64,000 bases of DNA from Patescibacteria group bacterium (lineage in GTDB: Bacteria; Patescibacteriota; Minisyncoccia; Ryanbacterales; GWA2-47-10b), in NCBI GenBank assembly GCA_038064855.1, contig JBBTSE010000002.1:72815-136814 (forward strand). The letters are read 5' to 3'. The notes below the pieces were generated by a model. It was not told where the DNA came from, did no database searches, and saw only the letters and a list, made by a program, of their open reading frames with translations. Shown in pieces: positions 35,595 to 46,662 of the stretch; position 1 is the first letter of the stretch; every line of letters begins with the position of its first letter. The position numbers and the translations under genes are program-made.

Positions 35595-36692
35595 ATGTTC
35601 CGTACGCTCAAAGCGATCGGACTGCTCGCGGGCATGATTATCGGTGCTGGTATGTTTGCCCTACCGTATACCATTGTGCGTGCGGGTATTGGTTGGTCGC
35701 TTGTTCATGCCAGTATTGTCCTGGTGCTGGTTACGCTCACGCACGCGCTGTACGCAGGTGTTATTTTAAAAGACCGCAGACACGCGCGTCTCCCTGGGTA
35801 CGCGCGCGAGTATCTGGGCGAGAGTGGTTTTTGGATAGCGCTCATTTCACGGTTAGGGGCGTATTGGGGGTTTTTACTCGCGTACGGTATTATCATTGGC
35901 GATTTTTTTGCGCACATCATTCCGTTGTCTGAGACAACGCTCGCTATCACTTTTTTTATTCTTGTTTCGCCACTTATTCTTTTTCGCCTCTCGCGCATCG
36001 GTACGATCAATTTTGTGCTTACGCTTCCCGAAGTGTTTTTGCCACTCATTTTCTTTTTCATATGGTGGCCGCAGTTTGATTTTTCAGCAGTTTCATTTGG
36101 AGGTCATGGCGATTGGTTCCTACCCTACGGCATTTTTCTTTTCGCACTTTCTGGTGCATCAGTGATACCAGAGGTTATTGACACGCTCGGCACCTCGGCG
36201 CATAAAAAAATATTTCCCGTGATCATCGCTGGTAGTGTGATTGCGATATTAATTTATGCCGCGTTTAGTTTGACGATTATCGGGCTTGCGGGTGGCGTGC
36301 CTTCGCATGATTCACTCTCAGTCCTTGCCGTGAGCATTGGTCACCGTGCGTACATCGTAGGGACATTGCTCGGGCTTCTTGCTGTCATCACTTCATACAT
36401 AGCACTCGGACTTGAGTTGAAGTATACCTTTGAATATGATCTCGGGCGTTCGTCGTATGTTGCGTGGGCGCTCACCGCATTTATGCCTCTCGCGATATAT
36501 CTTGCGGGTGTCAGAAGTTTCATTTTACTCATCGATATTATTGGTGCAGTCGGAGTTGGCGTTGAGGGAGTTATTATTGCGCTTCTCGCGCGTCGCGTGC
36601 TTGGTACCCAATGGATTATCGCAGGCGGTATTGCACTCGCACTTGCGGCCGGTGCCGCCTTTGAATTGATACGCACTACAGGAGTGCTATGA
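35595..36692 (+). CDS. Amino-acid permease-like transporter (about 11 TM, HAAAP-like)
   Basis: GAGMFALPY N-terminal motif and multi-TM architecture. Confidence 0.6.
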   Translation: MFRTLKAIGLLAGMIIGAGMFALPYTIVRAGIGWSLVHASIVLVLVTLTHALYAGVILKDRRHARLPGYAREYLGESGFWIALISRLGAYWGFLLAYGIIIGDFFAHIIPLSETTLAITFFILVSPLILFRLSRIGTINFVLTLPEVFLPLIFFFIWWPQFDFSAVSFGGHGDWFLPYGIFLFALSGASVIPEVIDTLGTSAHKKIFPVIIAGSVIAILIYAAFSLTIIGLAGGVPSHDSLSVLAVSIGHRAYIVGTLLGLLAVITSYIALGLELKYTFEYDLGRSSYVAWALTAFMPLAIYLAGVRSFILLIDIIGAVGVGVEGVIIALLARRVLGTQWIIAGGIALALAAGAAFELIRTTGVL

Positions 36693-37315
36693 CCAAAAAA
36701 GAATTGCTCGCGGACCTCGAGCAAGAAATGATAAAAGATACTACACTCCCGCTACAGGAAGCTCGCTTGGTTTTTGGTGAGGGCAACGAGGACGCCGAGG
36801 TTTTATTTATCGGCGAGGCACCCGGTTTTCACGAAGATCGGCTCGGCCGCCCGTTTGTTGGCAGGGGAGGCGAGCTTCTTACTGAATGTATCGGGAGCAT
36901 CGGTTGGTACCGAGAACAGGTATATATTACAAACATCGTAAAACGCAGACCACCAGAAAATAGAGATCCATTATCTGAAGAGATCGAGGCATACAAACCA
37001 TATCTCGCGCGTCAGATTGAAATTATAGGCCCGCGCATTATTGTACCGCTCGGCAGGTTTGCTATGAATTATTTTTTGCCTGACGCGAAAATTTCTCGTG
37101 ACCAAGGAAAAATATTTGTTGTCGGCAAGTACAAGGTGATGCCCATGTTTCATCCGGCGGCGGCGCTGCGCGGTACGACCGTGCTCAATCAATTTAAAGA
37201 AACATTTACAAAACTTCCTATGATCGTATCGGGCGAGGTTGAGGTAATAAAACCAGAAGTTACTCAAACAAAAAAATCTTCCGAAGAAGAATCGTCTCAA
37301 GTCTCTCTTTTCTAG
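36689..37315 (+). CDS. Uracil-DNA glycosylase family 4
   Basis: LFIGEAPG...GRPFVG...HPAAALR motifs of family 4 UDG. Confidence 0.85.
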   Translation: MTKKELLADLEQEMIKDTTLPLQEARLVFGEGNEDAEVLFIGEAPGFHEDRLGRPFVGRGGELLTECIGSIGWYREQVYITNIVKRRPPENRDPLSEEIEAYKPYLARQIEIIGPRIIVPLGRFAMNYFLPDAKISRDQGKIFVVGKYKVMPMFHPAAALRGTTVLNQFKETFTKLPMIVSGEVEVIKPEVTQTKKSSEEESSQVSLF

Positions 37316-37420
37316 CCAGCTCAAAAAAGCCTTAAAAATAGAGGGAAAGGGGGGACATTGACATATTAGTTTTTATATAGTATAATGCAGAAAGATCTTT
37401 AAATACTTACTTGCGAACTC

Positions 37421-37468
37421 TGCCACAGCAGAAAGCGCCTTATTCTTAGGACCTTTTCTGCTGTGGCA
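37421..37468 (+). promoter_or_regulatory. Long stem-loop (14-bp stem) upstream of the DGR target gene
   Basis: TGCCACAGCAGAAA...18-nt loop...TTTCTGCTGTGGCA. Confidence 0.4.
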
Positions 37469-37548
37469 AAGCCGACAGGCGGTAATGCCAGCCCGTGTTG
37501 GGCAACAGCGTTAATCTAACTGGCGAAAACCGAAAAGGAGAAAACGCC

Positions 37549-38169
37549 ATGGACCGTCAGACTGGAAAGCTTATCTCACGTATCGCGGAGAATCTCCCCG
37601 ACATGTCGTCGGACATCATGCAGGGCTGGATTGAGAACCCGCGGGCACTTCAGAAGTTCCTCGCGAGCCTCAGCCCACCTGAGACATCACCCGAGTTCCA
37701 AACCTGGAAGACCATCAAGCTCGGCACGGGCCTTAAGACCGCGGACGATTTCCGTCGAGTACTCCGTGACAGCTGCCGCATCGGCGACGGGGCTTCGGAC
37801 ATTCTCGGCAAGCCCGCCTTCACGGTGTGCGACACCGAGATGGAGCTCGATCTCGTTCGCCCCTCGGTGGCCGAGCTCGGCTTCAAGGATGGCGCCACCT
37901 TCAAGGACATCTGCGAGCGGGGTCTCGAGTACGGACTCAAGCTCTGTCCCGCAGAAGTCGGCCCCCAGCTCCGTCTCCAGTACAGGGACCAGCCGTTGGG
38001 TGAGTGGCTCATCATCGCCATGAAGGCCATCCGCTACTCGGCCGGCGACCTCAGCGTGTTCAGCGTGGAACGCTATGACAACGGGCTGTGGCTCAGCGGC
38101 TACGATGGCAGCCCTGATTACTTTTGGTTCAGCCTCGACCGTTTCGTGTTCGTTCGTCCTCGCAAGTAG
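37549..38169 (+). CDS. DGR target (variable) protein; the C-terminal ~44 codons are the variable repeat
   Basis: GC-rich ORF with AAGGAG 9 nt upstream of ATG 37549 and no signal peptide. The last 134 bp pair with the TR, and the VR ends 2 codons before the stop. Confidence 0.8.
   Translation: MDRQTGKLISRIAENLPDMSSDIMQGWIENPRALQKFLASLSPPETSPEFQTWKTIKLGTGLKTADDFRRVLRDSCRIGDGASDILGKPAFTVCDTEMELDLVRPSVAELGFKDGATFKDICERGLEYGLKLCPAEVGPQLRLQYRDQPLGEWLIIAMKAIRYSAGDLSVFSVERYDNGLWLSGYDGSPDYFWFSLDRFVFVRPRK
38031..38163 (+). repeat. DGR variable repeat (VR)
   Basis: Aligns over ~133 bp to 38532-38664. All but one of ~18 mismatches fall where the other copy has A, so this copy is the variable one. Confidence 0.85.
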
Positions 38170-38256
38170 TCCTCGGCGCTGGGAGCCTTGGTCTCTGACC
38201 TTGGAGCCTTGGTCCTTGGAGAAAATCATCAACGTTGGGAGATAACGCTAAGCTCC

Positions 38257-38296
38257 AGCCCCATATCTATCGTAGATATGGGGCTCTATTTTTATG
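38257..38296 (+). terminator. Rho-independent terminator / hairpin downstream of VR
   Basis: AGCCCCATATCTA-tcg-TAGATATGGGGCT followed by CTATTTTTAT. Confidence 0.65.
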
Positions 38297-38531
38297 CTAA
38301 AATAATTCTTGGCAGTAGGTGAATATGCGAGAGACCAAGGTTTCTTGCTACCGAACCCAGTATCCTTGCGCCGAGTGTATCCACGACCATGGTTTTGGGT
38401 AGGGTGGTGCATGAGAACTCTCAAAAAATGAAGATACTTGGTATTGCGTGCTAGGGCATTGAAGATGTCGAATACGATACAGCCCCGAGAGTATTCAAGG
38501 GGCAGTGGCACAGATGGCGCGCTTTACGTCT

Positions 38532-38664
38532 CCGCAACTCGGCCGGCAACCTCAACGTGTTCAGCGTGGAACACAATGACAACGGGCTGTGGCTCAACAG
38601 CAACAATGGCAACCCTGACAACTTTTGGAACAGCAACAACCGTTTCGTGTTCGTTCGTCCTCGC
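38532..38664 (+). repeat. DGR template repeat (TR)
   Basis: Non-coding copy with a stop upstream and no start. It carries AAC at every VR-variable codon position and a 24-nt adenine-free 3' segment identical to the VR. Confidence 0.85.
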
Positions 38665-38672
38665 AACTCTCT

Positions 38673-39059
38673 TCATTTCTCCCTCGCCTTTGGTAGGGAG
38701 TTTTGCTTGCCCTGAGGTTGCTCAAGAGATTTTGTAAGCTGCCCGTTCCATCCTCCGAGCATCTTGCCGATTTCATCTATTTTTACCGAAAGCGCGGTGT
38801 ATTTTTTGTTATCAAGAGATTTCGTTTCCCACAAAATCATAAGCAGTATCTTGAGCGTATCTGTTTTGCGTATCGCAAGACGAACATAGGGTCTTTTTTC
38901 CTCTCGTGCAAGGAAGCTTGCACTTGCAATCGCTTCGATACTTTCTACAAAGAGATTATCGATCCTTTGGCCAAGAGAATGTCGGTGAAGTTTTGGTAAC
39001 GCTTGGTAGTATTGATACCACAGCAAATATGTATTTTTTAGCTTCTGTAAAATTGGCAA
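38673..39059 (-). CDS. avd: Avd-like accessory variability determinant (four-helix-bundle / 23S rRNA IVS protein family)
   Basis: LPKLHRHSLGQRID...EAIA...EKRPYVRLAIRKTDTLKILLMILWE...KIDEIGKMLGGW matches the four-helix-bundle family and bAvd-like C-terminal (E)IG(K/R)xLGxW. TTG start. Opposite strand to TR and RT. Confidence 0.7.
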   Translation of the reverse strand: MPILQKLKNTYLLWYQYYQALPKLHRHSLGQRIDNLFVESIEAIASASFLAREEKRPYVRLAIRKTDTLKILLMILWETKSLDNKKYTALSVKIDEIGKMLGGWNGQLTKSLEQPQGKQNSLPKAREK

Positions 39060-39096
39060 AACCCGTTGGGGGGGGGCTTACCTGGTTAGTATTTTT

Positions 39097-40101
39097 ATGA
39101 AAAGGCAGTTCACTCATACCTATAATGATATCATCTCTCTCGAAAATCTTCTTGAGGCGTGGAGGGAGTTTATCAATGGAAAACGCGGGCGCATTGATGT
39201 CCAGTTGTTTGAGCGCGATTTAATGAAAAACATTATCGCGCTTCATATAGATCTTGTAGGTAAGACTTACAAACATTCATCTTACTACGCATTTAACATC
39301 TCAGATCCCAAACCAAGAAATATACACAAAGCGAGTGTCCGAGATAGATTACTGCATCATGCGTTATACAGAAAACTATACCCATTTTTCGATAGGACTT
39401 TTATAGACGATTCATATTCGTGCAGACTGGGTAAGGGAACGCACAAAGCGATGAATAGATTCCGCTCTTTTGCGCAAAAAACATCAAAAAATTATACCAA
39501 AACAGTTTGGGTTCTGAAGTGTGATATACGGAAGTTCTTTGCCTCAATAGATCAAGAGGCTCTCATTAAGGTTATCGAGAGTTATGTGCCAGACAAAGAT
39601 ATTATTTTGCTTATCTCCGAAGTTGTTGGTAGCTTTCACTCAACGCAAACTGGTGTCGGGCTGCCTCTTGGTAATCTCACAAGCCAGCTTCTCGTAAATA
39701 TTTATATGAACGAGTTTGACCAGTTTATGAAACATAAGCTTAAAGCAAAATATTATATTCGCTACGCCGATGATTTTGTTATTTTTTCTCAAGACAAAAA
39801 ATTGCTTGAAAGTATGATGTTACAAATTCAAAGTTTTCTTTGGGAGCGGCTACGATTGCAACTCCACCCCGATAAGGTATCGATACGCACGGTGGCCTCC
39901 GGCGTTGATTTTCTTGGGTGGGTGTATTTTCCAGATCATCGAGTGTTACGAACGGTTACAAAAAAGAGGATGTTTCGCAACATTGGTATAAGCCAAGGCA
40001 AAAAAGAAACGGTACAGTCGTATCTAGGAACGATACGTCATGGCAATAGCCAGAAGCTTAAAGGCAAAATTGAAGGTTTGATAAATAAAATTTCAGTATA
40101 A
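39097..40101 (+). CDS. DGR reverse transcriptase
   Basis: RT motifs: LLEAWREF N-terminus, GLPLGNLTSQLLVNIYMNEFD (LGxxxSQ, DGR hallmark) and YIRYADDFVIF (YxDD). Confidence 0.88.
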   Translation: MKRQFTHTYNDIISLENLLEAWREFINGKRGRIDVQLFERDLMKNIIALHIDLVGKTYKHSSYYAFNISDPKPRNIHKASVRDRLLHHALYRKLYPFFDRTFIDDSYSCRLGKGTHKAMNRFRSFAQKTSKNYTKTVWVLKCDIRKFFASIDQEALIKVIESYVPDKDIILLISEVVGSFHSTQTGVGLPLGNLTSQLLVNIYMNEFDQFMKHKLKAKYYIRYADDFVIFSQDKKLLESMMLQIQSFLWERLRLQLHPDKVSIRTVASGVDFLGWVYFPDHRVLRTVTKKRMFRNIGISQGKKETVQSYLGTIRHGNSQKLKGKIEGLINKISV

Positions 40102-40368
40102 AAAAGTTTGGGCCTGCACGCGTGATGCGGGCAGGCCATTGTGCGAGAGAGAATTGTGGAAGGTGCGGTGAGCAGGGGAACTGCAGGGAAGGGGGAGGTG
40201 TGTAGGTGACGCATGGGCGTCAGTGCCGGTGGTGGCCATTACGCTGACCTCGCTCTTCTCTGAATTTCGATGCTCTTAGGATCTGCCTTAAGTATAGAGT
40301 GTAAAAAGTTTTTATGATACCGTTCTCTGTGGAAAACTTTTTCCTGCGCTATACTATCCATATACGCT

Positions 40369-42096
40369 ATGAACAATAAGGATATTTCAGATACACTGTT
40401 TGCTATCGCCGAGTATTTTACGATATTTAATGAGCCGTTTAAGGCGCGCGCGTATGAAAAAGTGGCAGAGACGCTTTCAAGCTTCGAGAGTGATATTCGC
40501 GAACTTTATAAAAATGGCGGATGCAAAGCGCTCGAAGAAATCCCAGGTATCGGCAAGGGAATTGCACAAACAATTGAAGAATATATCAAGACTAGTCGTG
40601 TGCGCGAGCTCGACGCTATGCGCAAAAAAATGCCGGTCAATATGGAAGAGCTGCGCAGTATTGAAGGTATCGGCCCCAAGGCAATAAAAACACTTTATGA
40701 GAAATTAAAAGTAAAAGATGTAGCAAGCTTAAAGAAGGCAGCGCTCGCAGGCAAGATTAGTAAGCTTGAAAAGTTTGGCCTCAAGTCTGAACAAAAGATT
40801 TTAAAAGGCATCGAGTTTTTTGAATCATCACATGGGAGGTTTTTGTTGGGCGAGGCGTTGCCTATCGCACGACGTATCGCGGGTGACTTACGCAAAGTGA
40901 AGGGCGTATCGCGCGTGGAGATTGCGGGATCGATCAGGCGATGGCGCGAGACATCAGGTGATATTGATATCTTGGTAGAGGCGACAAATGCTGACGCGGT
41001 GATGAGCATGTTTGTATCGCGCGAAGATATTGCGCATGTCATCGCACACGGCGAGACAAAAAGTTCAGCGCGCATAAAGGACGGTATTGATGTCGATGTG
41101 CGTGTACTACCCAAAAAATCTTTTGGTGCGGCACTTATTTATTTTACGGGTTCGAAAGATCATAATGTTTTGCTTAGGTCCTTGGCGCTGAAGAAAAAAT
41201 TGAAACTCAACGAATACGGTTTATATCGTGGTACGAAAATAATCGCGGGAGCTACAGAAGAGGAAGTATACAAAGCGCTCGGTGTCTTTATGCCACCACC
41301 CGAACTACGCGAAGGAAAAGATGAGCTCGAAAAAAAATACGGCGGGGTTGTAGATTTTACAGATTTGTGCGGAGATTTTCAAACACAGACTGATTGGACC
41401 GATGGTGCCGATTCTTTAGAGGCGATGGTGCGAGAAGCAAAACGATTGGGTCATGAATACATCGCGATCACGGATCACACCAAGAGTCTCGCGATGACGG
41501 GCGGATCTGATGAAAAAAAATTGCGTAAACAAATACGAGAGATTGGCACGCTCAATAAAAAAATTTCCGGCATCACGATATTGAGTGGTGCAGAGGTAAA
41601 TATTATGCGCGATGGCACGCTTGATATTTCTGACGAAGTTTTATCAGAGCTTGATATCGTGGGTGCTGCTGTTCACTCGCATTTTAATTTGTCAGCAGAG
41701 GAGCAGACCGAGCGCATCATGCGTGCGATGTCCAGCCCGCATGTCGATATTCTTTTTCATCCGACGGGACGCGTTCTCAAAAAAAGAGATCCATATGCAA
41801 TTGATATTGATCGCATCATCGCGCATGCAGTCTCAACTGGCACGGTACTCGAGATTGATGCACATCCGTGGCGACTTGATTTGAAAGATGATCATATTAA
41901 ACGCGCGGTAGATGCGGGCGCGATGTTTAGTATTGATACGGACGCACACTCTCTTGCAGAACTCTCATATTTGGAGTATGGTATAGGACAAGCGCGACGC
42001 GCGGGTCTTCCCAAAAATCGTGTTCTCAATACGCTTGCATTGCCAGCGTTACAAAAATTTTTGGCGACCCCAAAACAAAAGCGTCATCTCTTATGA
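40369..42096 (+). CDS. DNA polymerase X family with C-terminal PHP domain
   Basis: N-terminal Pol-beta-like HhH/fingers (IPGIGKGIAQTIEE) and C-terminal PHP (ITDHT...). 575 aa. Confidence 0.88.
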   Translation: MNNKDISDTLFAIAEYFTIFNEPFKARAYEKVAETLSSFESDIRELYKNGGCKALEEIPGIGKGIAQTIEEYIKTSRVRELDAMRKKMPVNMEELRSIEGIGPKAIKTLYEKLKVKDVASLKKAALAGKISKLEKFGLKSEQKILKGIEFFESSHGRFLLGEALPIARRIAGDLRKVKGVSRVEIAGSIRRWRETSGDIDILVEATNADAVMSMFVSREDIAHVIAHGETKSSARIKDGIDVDVRVLPKKSFGAALIYFTGSKDHNVLLRSLALKKKLKLNEYGLYRGTKIIAGATEEEVYKALGVFMPPPELREGKDELEKKYGGVVDFTDLCGDFQTQTDWTDGADSLEAMVREAKRLGHEYIAITDHTKSLAMTGGSDEKKLRKQIREIGTLNKKISGITILSGAEVNIMRDGTLDISDEVLSELDIVGAAVHSHFNLSAEEQTERIMRAMSSPHVDILFHPTGRVLKKRDPYAIDIDRIIAHAVSTGTVLEIDAHPWRLDLKDDHIKRAVDAGAMFSIDTDAHSLAELSYLEYGIGQARRAGLPKNRVLNTLALPALQKFLATPKQKRHLL

Positions 42097-46265: not shown

Positions 46266-46307
46266 GTCAAACAAAAAGCCTGATCTACATCAGGCTTTTT
46301 ATTTTTT
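46266..46307 (-). terminator. Rho-independent terminator downstream of ssrA (bidirectional hairpin)
   Basis: AAAAAGCCTGAT-ctac-ATCAGGCTTTTT flanked by A/T tracts on both sides. Confidence 0.65.
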
Positions 46308-46309
46308 TG

Positions 46310-46662
46310 TGGAAGTGGGCGGAATTGAACCGCCGTCCGAAAGTTCTTCTCAATAAAAATTTATACAGGCGTACTTAGGACGAACCCAAGAGTTTGCTCG
46401 ATTAGTTTCGCGCGCGTGTATCGAGCATGATGCGCACTAGCTGAGGATTATAACACCGGCATTCCACGCACTCAGCGGTTGCGGACCGATGCTCTGGCGC
46501 ATAGTGGCCAGAGAAACGCCTACGGCTTAGGCAAAAGCCATTGCCGGTTGGCGGTTAAATAAGTTTGCACTTATTGGCGTGTGGCATTTTTGGAAGAGGT
46601 GACCACACCTGCTCTTGCCTGATTTTCAAAGAGTCGAGACCCCGTCGAGGCCTGTCACTCCC
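46310..46662 (-). ncRNA. ssrA: tmRNA (ssrA), about 353 nt
   Basis: The 3' end is tRNA-like: T-stem-loop GGCGG-UUCAAUU-CCGCC plus acceptor CACUUCC-A. The 5' GGGAGUG pairs with it. An internal Ala-initiated tag-like reading frame ends ...AMAFA-TAA. It lies immediately downstream of smpB. Confidence 0.8.

What the first reader, a model, noticed from the sequence alone, without database searches (positions are those of the whole stretch)
38031..38664. VR/TR mismatch pattern is adenine-specific; every variable codon is AAC in the TR
Codon-by-codon alignment of 38035-38166 with 38536-38667 shows about 15 differing codons carrying ~17 nucleotide substitutions. In each case the TR has A where the VR has T, G or C: tac/aac, gac/aac, agc/aac, cgc/cac, tat/aat, ggc/agc, gat/aat, ttc/aac, ctc/aac. 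There is only one non-A difference (gat/gac, silent). The TR encodes Asn (AAC) at nearly all diversified positions. This is the classical DGR design that permits many residues and avoids stops. The observed VR state (Y, D, S, R, Y, S, G, Y, D, S, Y, F, L, D) is aromatic/Asp-rich like a ligand-binding surface.
Basis: seen in the sequence. Interest (0 to 1): 0.85.

Follow-up and report, generated by a model that had tools for sequence, protein, structure and literature searches.

The report
Diversity-generating retroelement in a Patescibacteria genome
The two repeats are the variable and template copies of a complete diversity-generating retroelement, a reverse-transcriptase system that rewrites the tip of one small binding protein. 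It is a typical example of a type already known to be common in Patescibacteria, though its template sits inside a conserved folded RNA that the sources I could search do not describe.

Summary
Window 38030-38165 and 38531-38666 are a 136-nt repeat with 17 mismatches. Sixteen fall on adenines of the second copy (Fisher p = 4e-10) and the other is a silent C/T. The variable repeat (VR) is the last 46 codons of a 206-aa ORF (37549-38169). The template repeat (TR) is non-coding and is followed by an inverted avd gene (38673-39059, minus strand) and a reverse transcriptase (39097-40101). That enzyme's best solved relative is the Bordetella phage DGR enzyme bRT (E = 2e-45).

This TR-(avd)-RT layout is the published "B3" architecture, reported for 90% of candidate-phyla-radiation (CPR) DGRs. 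The target belongs to a family of at least 1,518 Pfam-less CPR proteins. It is conserved over residues 1-160 and hypervariable exactly at the AAC/AAT (AAY) positions. The predicted fold resembles a divergent C-type lectin.

The title overstates one point: 10 of the 15 changed codons are AAC in the TR, not all.

I also found three features:
- The TR is embedded in a covariation-supported RNA of about 390 nt with a 215-nt 5' domain and no Rfam match.
- CTTNG repeats with a 7-8 nt period follow the VR.
- A conserved hairpin lies in the target's 5' UTR.

Verdict: a real, probably active DGR and a new member of a known kind.

The parts
37358..37386 (+). Promoter-like site of the target gene (TTGACA-17-TATAAT)
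   Evidence: 12 of 12 consensus match, the best in 37250-40400. Consensus match only; function is inferred.
37421..37468 (+). 14-bp hairpin in the target 5' UTR (UGCCACAGCAGAAA ... UUUCUGCUGUGGCA)
   Evidence: Read from the sequence. Homologous hairpins lie in at least 9 other loci that carry the leader RNA. In the 6 with a clean orientation readout they sit about 790-920 nt upstream of the leader. None of the 9 has a tblastn-detectable homolog of this target upstream of its leader.
37549..38169 (+). Target (variable protein) gene, 206 aa, with no Pfam or NCBIfam domain
38030..38165 (+). Variable repeat (VR), codons 161-206, ending 4 nt before the stop codon
   Evidence: The family alignment is hypervariable exactly at the positions that are AAY in the TR.
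38172..38219 (+). Array of CTNGG/CTTGG pentamers (38172, 38179, 38187, 38200, 38208, 38215) with a small central hairpin, GGTC-TCT-GACC
   Evidence: This is the densest CTTGG cluster in the 64-kb window. Across 125 loci the mean is 4.4 CTTNG per 160 nt after the VR, against 0.39 in a control region, with a dominant spacing of 7-8 nt (alignments). A role as target-site marker is inferred.
38257..38295 (+). Intrinsic-terminator-like hairpin (13-bp stem) plus T-run, ending the target transcription unit
   Evidence: A GC hairpin plus T-run sits at the same place in the related loci.
38295..38303 (+). Extended -10-like element TGCTAAAAT upstream of the TR RNA
   Evidence: The consensus TGnTAnAAT is conserved at this position in the 29-locus alignment. 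A promoter role is inferred.
38310..38530 (+). Structured 5' domain of the TR RNA: P1 38318-38352, P2 38367-38411, strand AAAUGAAG 38426-38433, invariant junction AUACUUG 38434-38440, P3 38441-38527
   Evidence: RNAalifold and pair counts on 25 loci: 96.1% of cells paired against 42-51% in slid controls, 47 of 64 pairs with compensatory changes, 0 of 500 shuffles as high. There is a single nhmmer hit in the window and no Rfam 15 match even at E<=10.
38531..38666 (+). Template repeat (TR), non-coding, with 12 in-frame AAC and 2 AAT codons
38671..38678 (+). CUUCAUUU, the 3' strand of a long-range duplex with 38426-38433 that brackets P3 plus the TR
   Evidence: Helix 6: 94% of cells paired, 3 of 8 pairs with compensatory change, otherwise nearly invariant. 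It recurs as the top hit of an independent helix scan. Its equivalence to the bRT 'cPRT Stop' duplex is inferred from bioRxiv 10.1101/2023.10.23.563531.
38679..38708 (+). Hairpin just after the TR (CUCCCU ... AGGGAG) followed by UUUUGCUU
   Evidence: Helix 10: 88.7% paired, 4 of 6 pairs with compensatory change (alignments). Whether it is an Avd-binding stem-loop, a terminator or both is inferred.
38673..39059 (-). avd accessory gene, 128 aa, opposite in orientation to the TR and RT
   Evidence: Pfam bAvd 2.4e-12 (47.7 bits, cut-off 40). [quoted passage not shown]
39097..40101 (+). DGR reverse transcriptase, 334 aa
   Evidence: RVT_1 1.7e-25. The best PDB match is bRT 8ub7 at 2e-45 over residues 7-312. 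The bRT residues K29, F66, R74, D138 and Q187 and the YxDD box are aligned and conserved, and I181 is Leu here.

Best explanation
This is a complete chromosomal diversity-generating retroelement (DGR) of the type typical of the candidate phyla radiation (CPR), with the layout target/VR - TR - (avd) - RT.

Proposed mechanism:
1. The TR is transcribed on the + strand as part of its own RNA of about 390 nt. That RNA consists of a 5' structured domain, the TR, a duplex joining sequences upstream and downstream of the TR, and a 3' hairpin.
2. The reverse transcriptase, together with Avd, copies the TR into cDNA and misincorporates opposite template adenines.
3. The cDNA replaces the last 136 nt of the target gene.
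4. As a result up to 21 codons (14 of them AAC/AAT, which can never become stop codons) are re-randomised on the C-terminal face of a small soluble protein with a C-type-lectin-like fold.

Shown here: the adenine-specific repeat pair, the gene set, the homology to bRT, the family-wide confinement of variation to VR positions, and the conserved RNA structure.

Inferred: actual cDNA synthesis and homing, the priming site, the roles of the RNA domains and of the CTTNG repeats after the VR, and what ligand the target binds.
For: - Repeat and adenine bias: 16 of 17 mismatches at TR adenines, p = 4e-10.
- The TR has no stop-capable codon.
- Avd and RT family hits. The RT is closest to the Bordetella phage bRT, with catalytic and template-contacting residues conserved.
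- About 38 of 80 genome loci encoding relatives of the target have the same layout. In the 25 related loci where a true TR/VR pair was aligned, about 94% of mismatches are at TR adenines; the pooled count of 518 A against 122 other bases includes five loci where the aligner paired something other than the true TR (L005, L007, L038, L010, L018).
- Target family: residues 1-160 are conserved, and the columns matching the TR's AAY codons are hypervariable. Within 90%-identity clusters, 18 of 18, 23 of 25, 22 of 30 and 22 of 35 variable columns lie in the last 50 residues.
- The fold search returns almost only C-type-lectin and FGE folds, including the DGR variable proteins TvpA and Mtd.
- The TR-flanking RNA structure has strong covariation support.
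- The RNA's sequence profile is found in 113 of 119 metagenome loci recovered with a 20-nt motif taken from the leader itself, so the enrichment is expected. The informative result is that avd(-) and RT(+) follow it wherever the contig extends far enough (about 85 loci show avd), mostly with other target genes.
[quoted passage not shown] CPR DGRs form their own clade, with targets lacking recognisable domains (PMC8144416).
Against: - There is no direct evidence of activity at this locus. It is a single assembled sequence and the protein's cluster has one member.
- One non-adenine mismatch exists.
- In this window helix P3 of the RNA has two U-U mismatches (sequence read against the pair list).
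- avd starts at TTG and has a C-terminal extension that overlaps the post-TR hairpin.
- The NCBIfam Avd score is below its cut-off.
- The priming site could not be located.
Confidence: 0.93

Rival explanations
1. It is a DGR by descent but is currently inactive: a fossil cassette whose VR was fixed some time ago.
For: One non-A mismatch. Two mismatches in RNA helix P3, and an atypically extended avd with a TTG start, in this window. Decay does happen in this family: several related loci keep the target followed only by truncated remnants of the leader RNA and no RT.
Against: The RT and avd ORFs are intact, and the catalytic and template-contact residues are conserved. The TR keeps all its AAY codons. 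There is only 1 change in 100 non-A positions, so the VR and TR have been homogenised recently. All RNA helices and the VR-end signature are present.
Confidence: 0.15
2. It is an ordinary partial gene duplication, or a pseudogene fragment of the target's 3' end, with no retroelement involved.
For: Two copies of a 136-nt coding segment lie 501 nt apart. Tandem duplications of this segment do occur in relatives (L018 and L010).
Against: Mismatches are adenine-specific (p = 4e-10) and directional. The second copy is non-coding and sits inside a conserved structured RNA next to avd and a bRT-like RT. The same arrangement recurs in dozens of loci.
Confidence: 0.01
3. The RT/ncRNA pair is a retron-like or defence-type reverse-transcriptase system, and the repeat is incidental.
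For: NCBIfam gives sub-threshold hits to retron, Drt and Abi reverse transcriptases. A structured ncRNA adjoins the RT.
Against: All of those hits are far below their cut-offs. The best solved relative is bRT, by 24 orders of magnitude. The accessory gene is Avd, not a retron effector. The ncRNA contains the TR itself, and the VR/TR pattern is the DGR hallmark.
Confidence: 0.01

Closest known systems
CPR / Patescibacteria DGRs: architecture B3, TR-(avd)-RT, of Wu et al. 2018 (PMC5758913), and 'DGR clade 2' of Roux et al. 2021 (PMC8144416)
   Same: The order and orientation of TR, inverted avd and RT are identical. The host is a CPR organism, the context is chromosomal, and the target has no recognisable domain or transmembrane segment. 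The adenine bias is the same.
   Different: Nothing essential differs; this locus is one more member. I could not check whether this target family equals one of their 'UVR1-6' classes, because no supplements are held. In the papers I could read and search I did not find a description of the 215-nt 5' RNA domain, the CTTNG repeats or the 5' UTR hairpin.
Bordetella phage BPP-1 DGR (mtd / avd / TR / brt), including the bRT-Avd-RNA complex (PDB 8ub7 series; bioRxiv 10.1101/2023.10.23.563531)
   Same: The RT is homologous over its full length (2e-45), with the active-site and template-contacting residues conserved. An Avd is present. The TR is about 135 nt and the VR lies at the 3' end of the target. 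A duplex forms between sequences upstream and downstream of the TR, and a stem-loop sits just after the TR.
   Different: avd is inverted and lies downstream of the TR, so it cannot supply the upstream RNA strand. In place of the 140-nt 3' spacer that carries the priming adenosine, only about 4 nt separate the TR from the duplex strand, and the large structured part lies 5' of the TR. The target is a 206-aa cytoplasmic-looking protein, not a phage tail fibre. After the VR there is a CTTNG array with only a weak 4-bp hairpin, instead of the GC-rich cruciform.
DGR variable proteins with a C-type-lectin fold (Mtd 1yu0, TvpA 2y3c) and FGE-type domains
   Different: There is no sequence similarity (no Pfam hit and no PDB sequence hit). 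The scores are moderate. The domain is preceded by a family-specific helical N-terminus of about 45 residues.
RT-10 and the other 'RT' RNA motifs of Weinberg et al. 2017 (PMC5737381)
   Same: They are conserved RNA structures next to bacterial RT genes. RT-10 lies between the TR and brt of BPP-1.
   Different: No Rfam 15 family matches 37300-39200 even at E<=10. The structure here lies mostly 5' of the TR.

Membership tests
Diversity-generating retroelement (DGR) | Two near-identical repeats whose differences fall almost only on adenines of one copy (the TR) | tested here: met
   16 of 17 mismatches are at TR adenines, p = 4e-10. The same holds in 25 related loci.
Diversity-generating retroelement (DGR) | The VR lies inside a protein-coding gene, typically at its 3' end; the TR is non-coding and close to the RT | tested here: met
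   The VR is codons 161-206 of a 206-codon ORF. The TR's frame is stop-bounded with no ATG, and the TR ends 430 nt before the RT start.
Diversity-generating retroelement (DGR) | Reverse transcriptase of the DGR clade, with the [I/L/V]GxxxSQ motif in place of the group II intron QGxxxSP, and a YxDD box | tested here: met
   LGNLTSQ and YADD are present. The best PDB relative is bRT at 2e-45, against 5e-21 for group II intron RTs. No phylogeny was built.
Diversity-generating retroelement (DGR) | Accessory protein Avd (present in most DGRs, not all) | tested here: met
   Pfam bAvd at 47.7 bits, above the cut-off of 40. NCBIfam DivGenRetAVD at 66 bits, below the cut-off of 80.
Diversity-generating retroelement (DGR) | Diversified TR codons designed to avoid stop codons (AAY-rich) | tested here: met
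   14 AAY codons among 21 A-bearing codons, none stop-capable.
Diversity-generating retroelement (DGR) | Directionality elements at the VR end (IMH versus IMH*) and an inverted repeat downstream of the VR | tested here: inconclusive
   The VR ends CGCAAG plus a stop codon and the TR ends CGCAA[C/A] in most loci. Downstream there is a CTTNG array with only a short (4-8 bp) hairpin, and RNAalifold found no consensus structure there. Function was not tested.
Diversity-generating retroelement (DGR) | TR RNA flanked by elements needed for cis-primed reverse transcription (a duplex between upstream and downstream sequences, and a stem-loop after the TR) | tested here: met
   The duplex 38426-38433 with 38671-38678, and the hairpin 38679-38700, are both conserved, with some compensatory changes. 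The equivalence to the BPP-1 elements is by position only.
Diversity-generating retroelement (DGR) | Demonstrated mutagenic retrohoming (cDNA with adenine-specific errors replacing the VR) | not testable with these tools
   There is only indirect support: variation within 90%-identity clusters of the target family is confined to VR columns.
CPR-type DGR, architecture B3 | Core order TR - avd on the opposite strand - RT, in a CPR genome | tested here: met
   Coordinates. The source record is labelled Patescibacteria group bacterium. The definition comes from PMC5758913.
C-type-lectin-fold DGR variable proteins | The VR maps onto a C-type-lectin / FGE-like fold | tested here: inconclusive

The most novel reading that the evidence does not exclude
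In this CPR clade the DGR template may be a self-contained RNA of about 390 nt, with its own promoter and terminator-like hairpin. Its large 5' structured domain (P1-P3) would take over the priming and processivity roles that the 3' spacer plays in the Bordetella phage element, making it a permuted DGR RNA and an undescribed RNA class. The CTTNG array after every VR would be the target-site marker. It might be read by the RNA's invariant single-stranded ACUUGG, which is complementary to the bottom strand of the repeats, or by Avd. If so, the long-unknown target-recognition step of retrohoming would become testable.
Probability: 0.2. Interest if true: 0.7.

Novelty: new member of a known kind. 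Interest (0 to 1): 0.38.

Why it matters
The DGR itself is ordinary for a Patescibacteria genome, so the finding mainly annotates four features that the source record leaves as hypothetical or unannotated.

Its value lies in what the family comparison exposes:
- A very large, Pfam-less family of small target proteins with a confidently predicted fold.
- A strongly covarying RNA around the TR, shared by more than 100 CPR DGR cores whatever their target.
- A repeat signature (CGCAAG, a stop codon, then CTTNG repeats) that marks target genes, including apparent remote or orphaned ones.

These give concrete handles for reconstituting a CPR-type DGR. They also make it possible to ask how cDNA priming and target recognition work when avd is inverted and there is no 3' spacer.

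Tried and rejected
- A sequence search of the target-family profile and of Avd against PDB sequences found nothing.
- A 14-mer from the leader scanned against viral contigs gave 120 loci, none of which contains the leader. Those were chance matches, so there is no evidence of a phage association.
- I looked for conserved neighbours, because UDG and PolX flank the cassette here. Neither is linked in related loci, so I rejected this as coincidence.
- RNAalifold on the region after the TR gave no structure at first, because two loci (L010, L018) had a duplicated unit mis-assigned as the TR. This resolved once they were removed.
- RNAalifold on the post-VR repeats gave no consensus. The small hairpin there rests on inspection only.
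- A helix scan for a partner of the TR's 3' end (a priming duplex) found only the long-range duplex and weak alternatives.
- Rfam at the gathering threshold and at E<=10 found no family over 38170-39100. The matches to microRNA families at 37410-37479 merely reflect a long hairpin.
- Paul et al. 2017 and the supplements of Wu et al. 2018 are not held. I therefore could not check whether this target family or the RNA is described there.
- My first frame assignment for the ORF was off by one; it was corrected.

Full report
**Observation**

The repeat finder returns one long direct repeat near the finding: 38030-38165 and 38531-38666, 136 nt, offset 501, 88% identical. Base-by-base comparison gives 17 mismatches. 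Sixteen lie where the second copy has A (A>G 8, A>T 7, A>C 1). One lies where it has C (a silent GAC/GAT). With 36 A and 100 non-A bases in that copy, the one-sided Fisher p is 4e-10.

The only overstatement is the title. The changed template codons are AAC (10), AAT (2), CAC, AGC and GAC. One AAC (codon 178) is unchanged.

The Tyr/Asp/Ser-rich state of the variable copy is what single substitutions of AAY produce. It says little by itself about a binding surface.

No A-bearing template codon can become a stop, and the theoretical diversity is about 10^20.8 proteins. The template copy is not part of an intact gene: its frame is a stop-bounded 87-codon stretch without an ATG.

**What is there**

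The variable repeat (VR) is the last 46 codons of a 206-aa ORF, 37549-38169. Six nucleotides after the template repeat (TR) lies the end of a 128-aa minus-strand ORF (38673-39059). That ORF matches Pfam bAvd above its cut-off, and NCBIfam DivGenRetAVD below its cut-off. Thirty-seven nucleotides further on, a 334-aa reverse transcriptase starts on the plus strand (39097-40101; RVT_1).

The best solved relative of that enzyme is bRT of the Bordetella phage DGR (8ub7), at E = 2e-45 over residues 7-312. The next best are group II intron enzymes at 5e-21. The aligned residues include bRT K29, F66, R74, D138 and Q187 and the YxDD box. I181 is Leu here, inside LGNLTSQ.

The neighbours are housekeeping genes: NDK, a beta-CASP RNase, a SLOG protein, a permease, UDG, PolX, NUDIX and ZIP. 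A tmRNA gene lies at 46307-46662. The source record is a Patescibacteria MAG in which the target is annotated 'hypothetical protein'. This is a chromosomal DGR with the layout target/VR - TR - (avd) - RT.

**Evidence from relatives**

The target has at least 1,518 homologs of about 205-215 aa. The named source records are mostly Patescibacteria lineages, and none of the listed homologs has a Pfam domain. In a 61-sequence alignment, residues 1-160 are well conserved, while the columns corresponding to the TR's AAY codons are hypervariable.

I fetched eighty genome loci encoding relatives. About 38 have TR, avd(-) and RT(+) in the same order within 4 kb. In 25 of them a VR/TR pair of about 135 nt could be aligned without gaps, and its mismatches are overwhelmingly at TR adenines. 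Five further rows in that table are the aligner pairing something other than the true TR: two paralogous target genes in L005, L007 and L038, and a duplicated repeat unit in L010 and L018.

Within 90%-identity clusters of the family, the variable columns fall almost entirely in the last 50 residues: 18 of 18, 23 of 25, 22 of 30 and 22 of 35. That is the pattern expected if the element is active in natural populations of this family.

**Target fold**

I read this as a divergent C-type-lectin-like domain preceded by a helical N-terminus of about 45 residues. The fold assignment is moderate in strength, not proven. No hydrophobic segment is visible by eye, which agrees with the published remark that CPR targets lack transmembrane and other recognisable domains (PMC8144416).

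**How it most likely works**

By homology with the Bordetella phage system, the TR is transcribed, RT-Avd copies it into cDNA with errors opposite adenines, and the cDNA replaces the VR. The anatomy here adds detail.

The target gene looks like its own transcription unit. It has a perfect TTGACA-17-TATAAT at 37358-37386 and a 13-bp hairpin plus T-run at 38257-38295.

The 361 nt between the target's stop codon and the TR are conserved in length (250-383 nt in 29 loci). After the terminator comes a conserved extended -10-like TGnTAnAAT (38295-38303), followed by about 215 nt of strongly conserved sequence up to the TR.

RNAalifold on 25 loci predicts these elements:
- Two 5' hairpin domains: P1 38318-38352 and P2 38367-38411.
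- A three-way domain, P3, at 38441-38527.
- A long-range duplex, AAAUGAAG (38426-38433) with CUUCAUUU (38671-38678), that brackets P3 plus the TR.
- A hairpin right after it (38679-38700), followed by a U-run.

Counting pairs on that alignment gives 96.1% of cells paired, against 42-51% when the partners are slid. Forty-seven of 64 pairs show compensatory changes, against 12-26 in the slid controls, and 0 of 500 shuffles reach the observed values. The caveat is that the structure was derived from the same alignment, and the sequences are related by descent.

Many conserved G-U pairs make the structure specific to the + strand, which is also the strand implied by the adenine bias.

No Rfam 15 family matches, even at E<=10.

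An nhmmer profile of the leader hits the window once. It hits every complete locus and none of the 120 viral-contig chance matches.

A 20-nt motif from the leader recovered 119 metagenome loci, 113 of which contain the leader. Because the seed motif comes from the leader, that high yield is expected. What is informative is what follows: wherever the contig extends far enough, a TR-sized gap, then avd(-), then RT(+) (about 85 loci show avd). Most of these loci have no homolog of this window's target. The RNA therefore belongs to the RT/avd core rather than to the target family.

The cryo-EM work on bRT-Avd-RNA describes a duplex between sequences upstream and downstream of the TR (the 'cPRT Stop'). 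It also describes an Avd-binding stem-loop just after the TR, and says such elements are predictable in many DGRs, CPR ones included (bioRxiv 10.1101/2023.10.23.563531). The long-range duplex and the post-TR hairpin here are most likely those elements.

What differs is the rest. Only about 4 nt separate the TR from the duplex strand, so there is no room for a 3' spacer carrying the primer, and the bulk of the structure is 5' of the TR. I could not locate a priming duplex by covariation. Whether P3 supplies the primer is an inference.

**Target-site signature**

In this family, and in loci with other targets, the VR ends CGCAAG followed by a stop codon, while the TR ends CGCAA[C/A].

Directly after the stop comes an array of CTTNG pentamers with a 7-8 nt period. 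The mean is 4.4 per 160 nt in 125 loci, against 0.39 in a control region. The window's four exact CTTGG copies within 34 nt are the densest cluster in the 64 kb. A short hairpin sits in the middle (GGTC-TCT-GACC here), but RNAalifold found no consensus there.

Many relatives of the target without a nearby RT still keep CGCAAG and the repeats, so they may be remote targets. Others keep only truncated remnants of the leader and look like decayed cassettes.

The invariant single-stranded ACUUGG of the RNA (38435-38440) has the same sequence as the repeats, so it could pair with their bottom strand. This is a 5-6 nt coincidence until tested.

**Comparison with what is known**

TR-(avd)-RT is architecture B3 of Wu et al. 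[quoted passage not shown] Roux et al. 2021 place CPR DGRs in their own clade, with targets that lack recognisable domains and may be new C-type-lectin variants (PMC8144416). This locus is therefore a new member of a known kind.

I found no description of the 5' RNA domain, the CTTNG array or the conserved 5' UTR hairpin, either in Rfam 15 or in the papers I could search and read.

**Rivals**

- A fossil DGR remains possible, at about 0.15. There is one non-A mismatch, two U-U mismatches in P3 in this window, and an extended avd that starts at TTG. However, the genes and motifs are intact, and only 1 of 100 non-A positions differs.
- An ordinary duplication, or a retron-like system, is excluded by the adenine specificity, the directionality and the gene set.

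**Verdict**

The element is ordinary for its host group. Interest is moderate and comes mainly from the conserved RNA and the target-site signature that the comparison revealed.

Noticed in passing
window 38310-38708: The TR is embedded in a conserved structured RNA of about 390 nt: a 5' domain with helices P1-P3, a long-range duplex bracketing the TR, and a 3' hairpin with a U-run. Covariation support is strong and there is no Rfam 15 match. The same RNA precedes avd(-) and RT(+) in more than 100 metagenome loci that carry other target genes.
   Followed up: yes
window 38172-38219: An array of CTTGG-type pentamers with a 7-8 nt period lies directly after the VR stop codon, with a small central hairpin. 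It is present after the VR in about 125 related loci, roughly 11-fold enriched over a control region, and is retained after some 'orphan' targets. Its function is unknown. The RNA's invariant ACUUGG has the same sequence.
   Followed up: partly
window 37421-37468: A 14-bp hairpin (GCCACAGCAGAAAG ... UUUCUGCUGUGGC) lies in the target's 5' UTR, downstream of a perfect sigma-70-type promoter. Homologous hairpins, with a few compensatory changes, occur in at least 9 other leader-bearing loci that lack a detectable homolog of this target upstream of the leader, at about 790-920 nt upstream of the leader where the orientation is clear.
   Followed up: partly
window 37549-38169 against 38700-40100, and loci L003-L079: The target gene is much richer in G+C (0.61) than the RT/avd region (0.38-0.41) and the flanking genome (about 0.47). 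The same 10-25 point excess is seen in most of the related loci. It is unexplained.
   Followed up: partly
L018 4484-5442 and L010 1066-1974: These two loci have a tandem duplication of the unit [CTTNG repeats - terminator - leader - TR-like repeat]. A leader-preceded repeat copy is itself followed by VR-type CTTNG repeats, which looks like the product of VR/TR recombination.
   Followed up: no
L054, L043, L059, L011, L073, L026, L005, L077, L045 (just after the target gene): Target homologs are followed only by truncated remnants of the leader RNA, with no TR or RT in the flank, suggesting decayed cassettes. Other orphans (for example L002, L040, L056, L076) keep CGCAAG, the stop codon and the CTTNG repeats but have no leader, so they may be remote targets.
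   Followed up: partly
protein P0147 (cluster of P0013): One family member reads Asn at essentially every variable position (NLNVFNVKRNDDGKQWLNANNGHPDNFWNGNN). It is either an unmutated, freshly reset VR or a gene call across a TR.
   Followed up: no
record titles of L009, L014, L020, L036, L038, L039, L050; P0136: Several loci with this CPR-type target or cassette sit in MAGs labelled Gammaproteobacteria, Verrucomicrobiota, Limisphaerales, Bryobacterales or Negativicutes. This could be binning or labelling error, or horizontal transfer.
   Followed up: no
window 36689-37315 and 40369-42096: The cassette is flanked by two DNA-repair genes, a family-4-type UDG and PolX. This linkage is not conserved in related loci, so it is probably a coincidence.
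   Followed up: yes
window 46307-46662 (-): A tmRNA gene with the tag peptide ANLFNRQPAMAFA.
   Followed up: no
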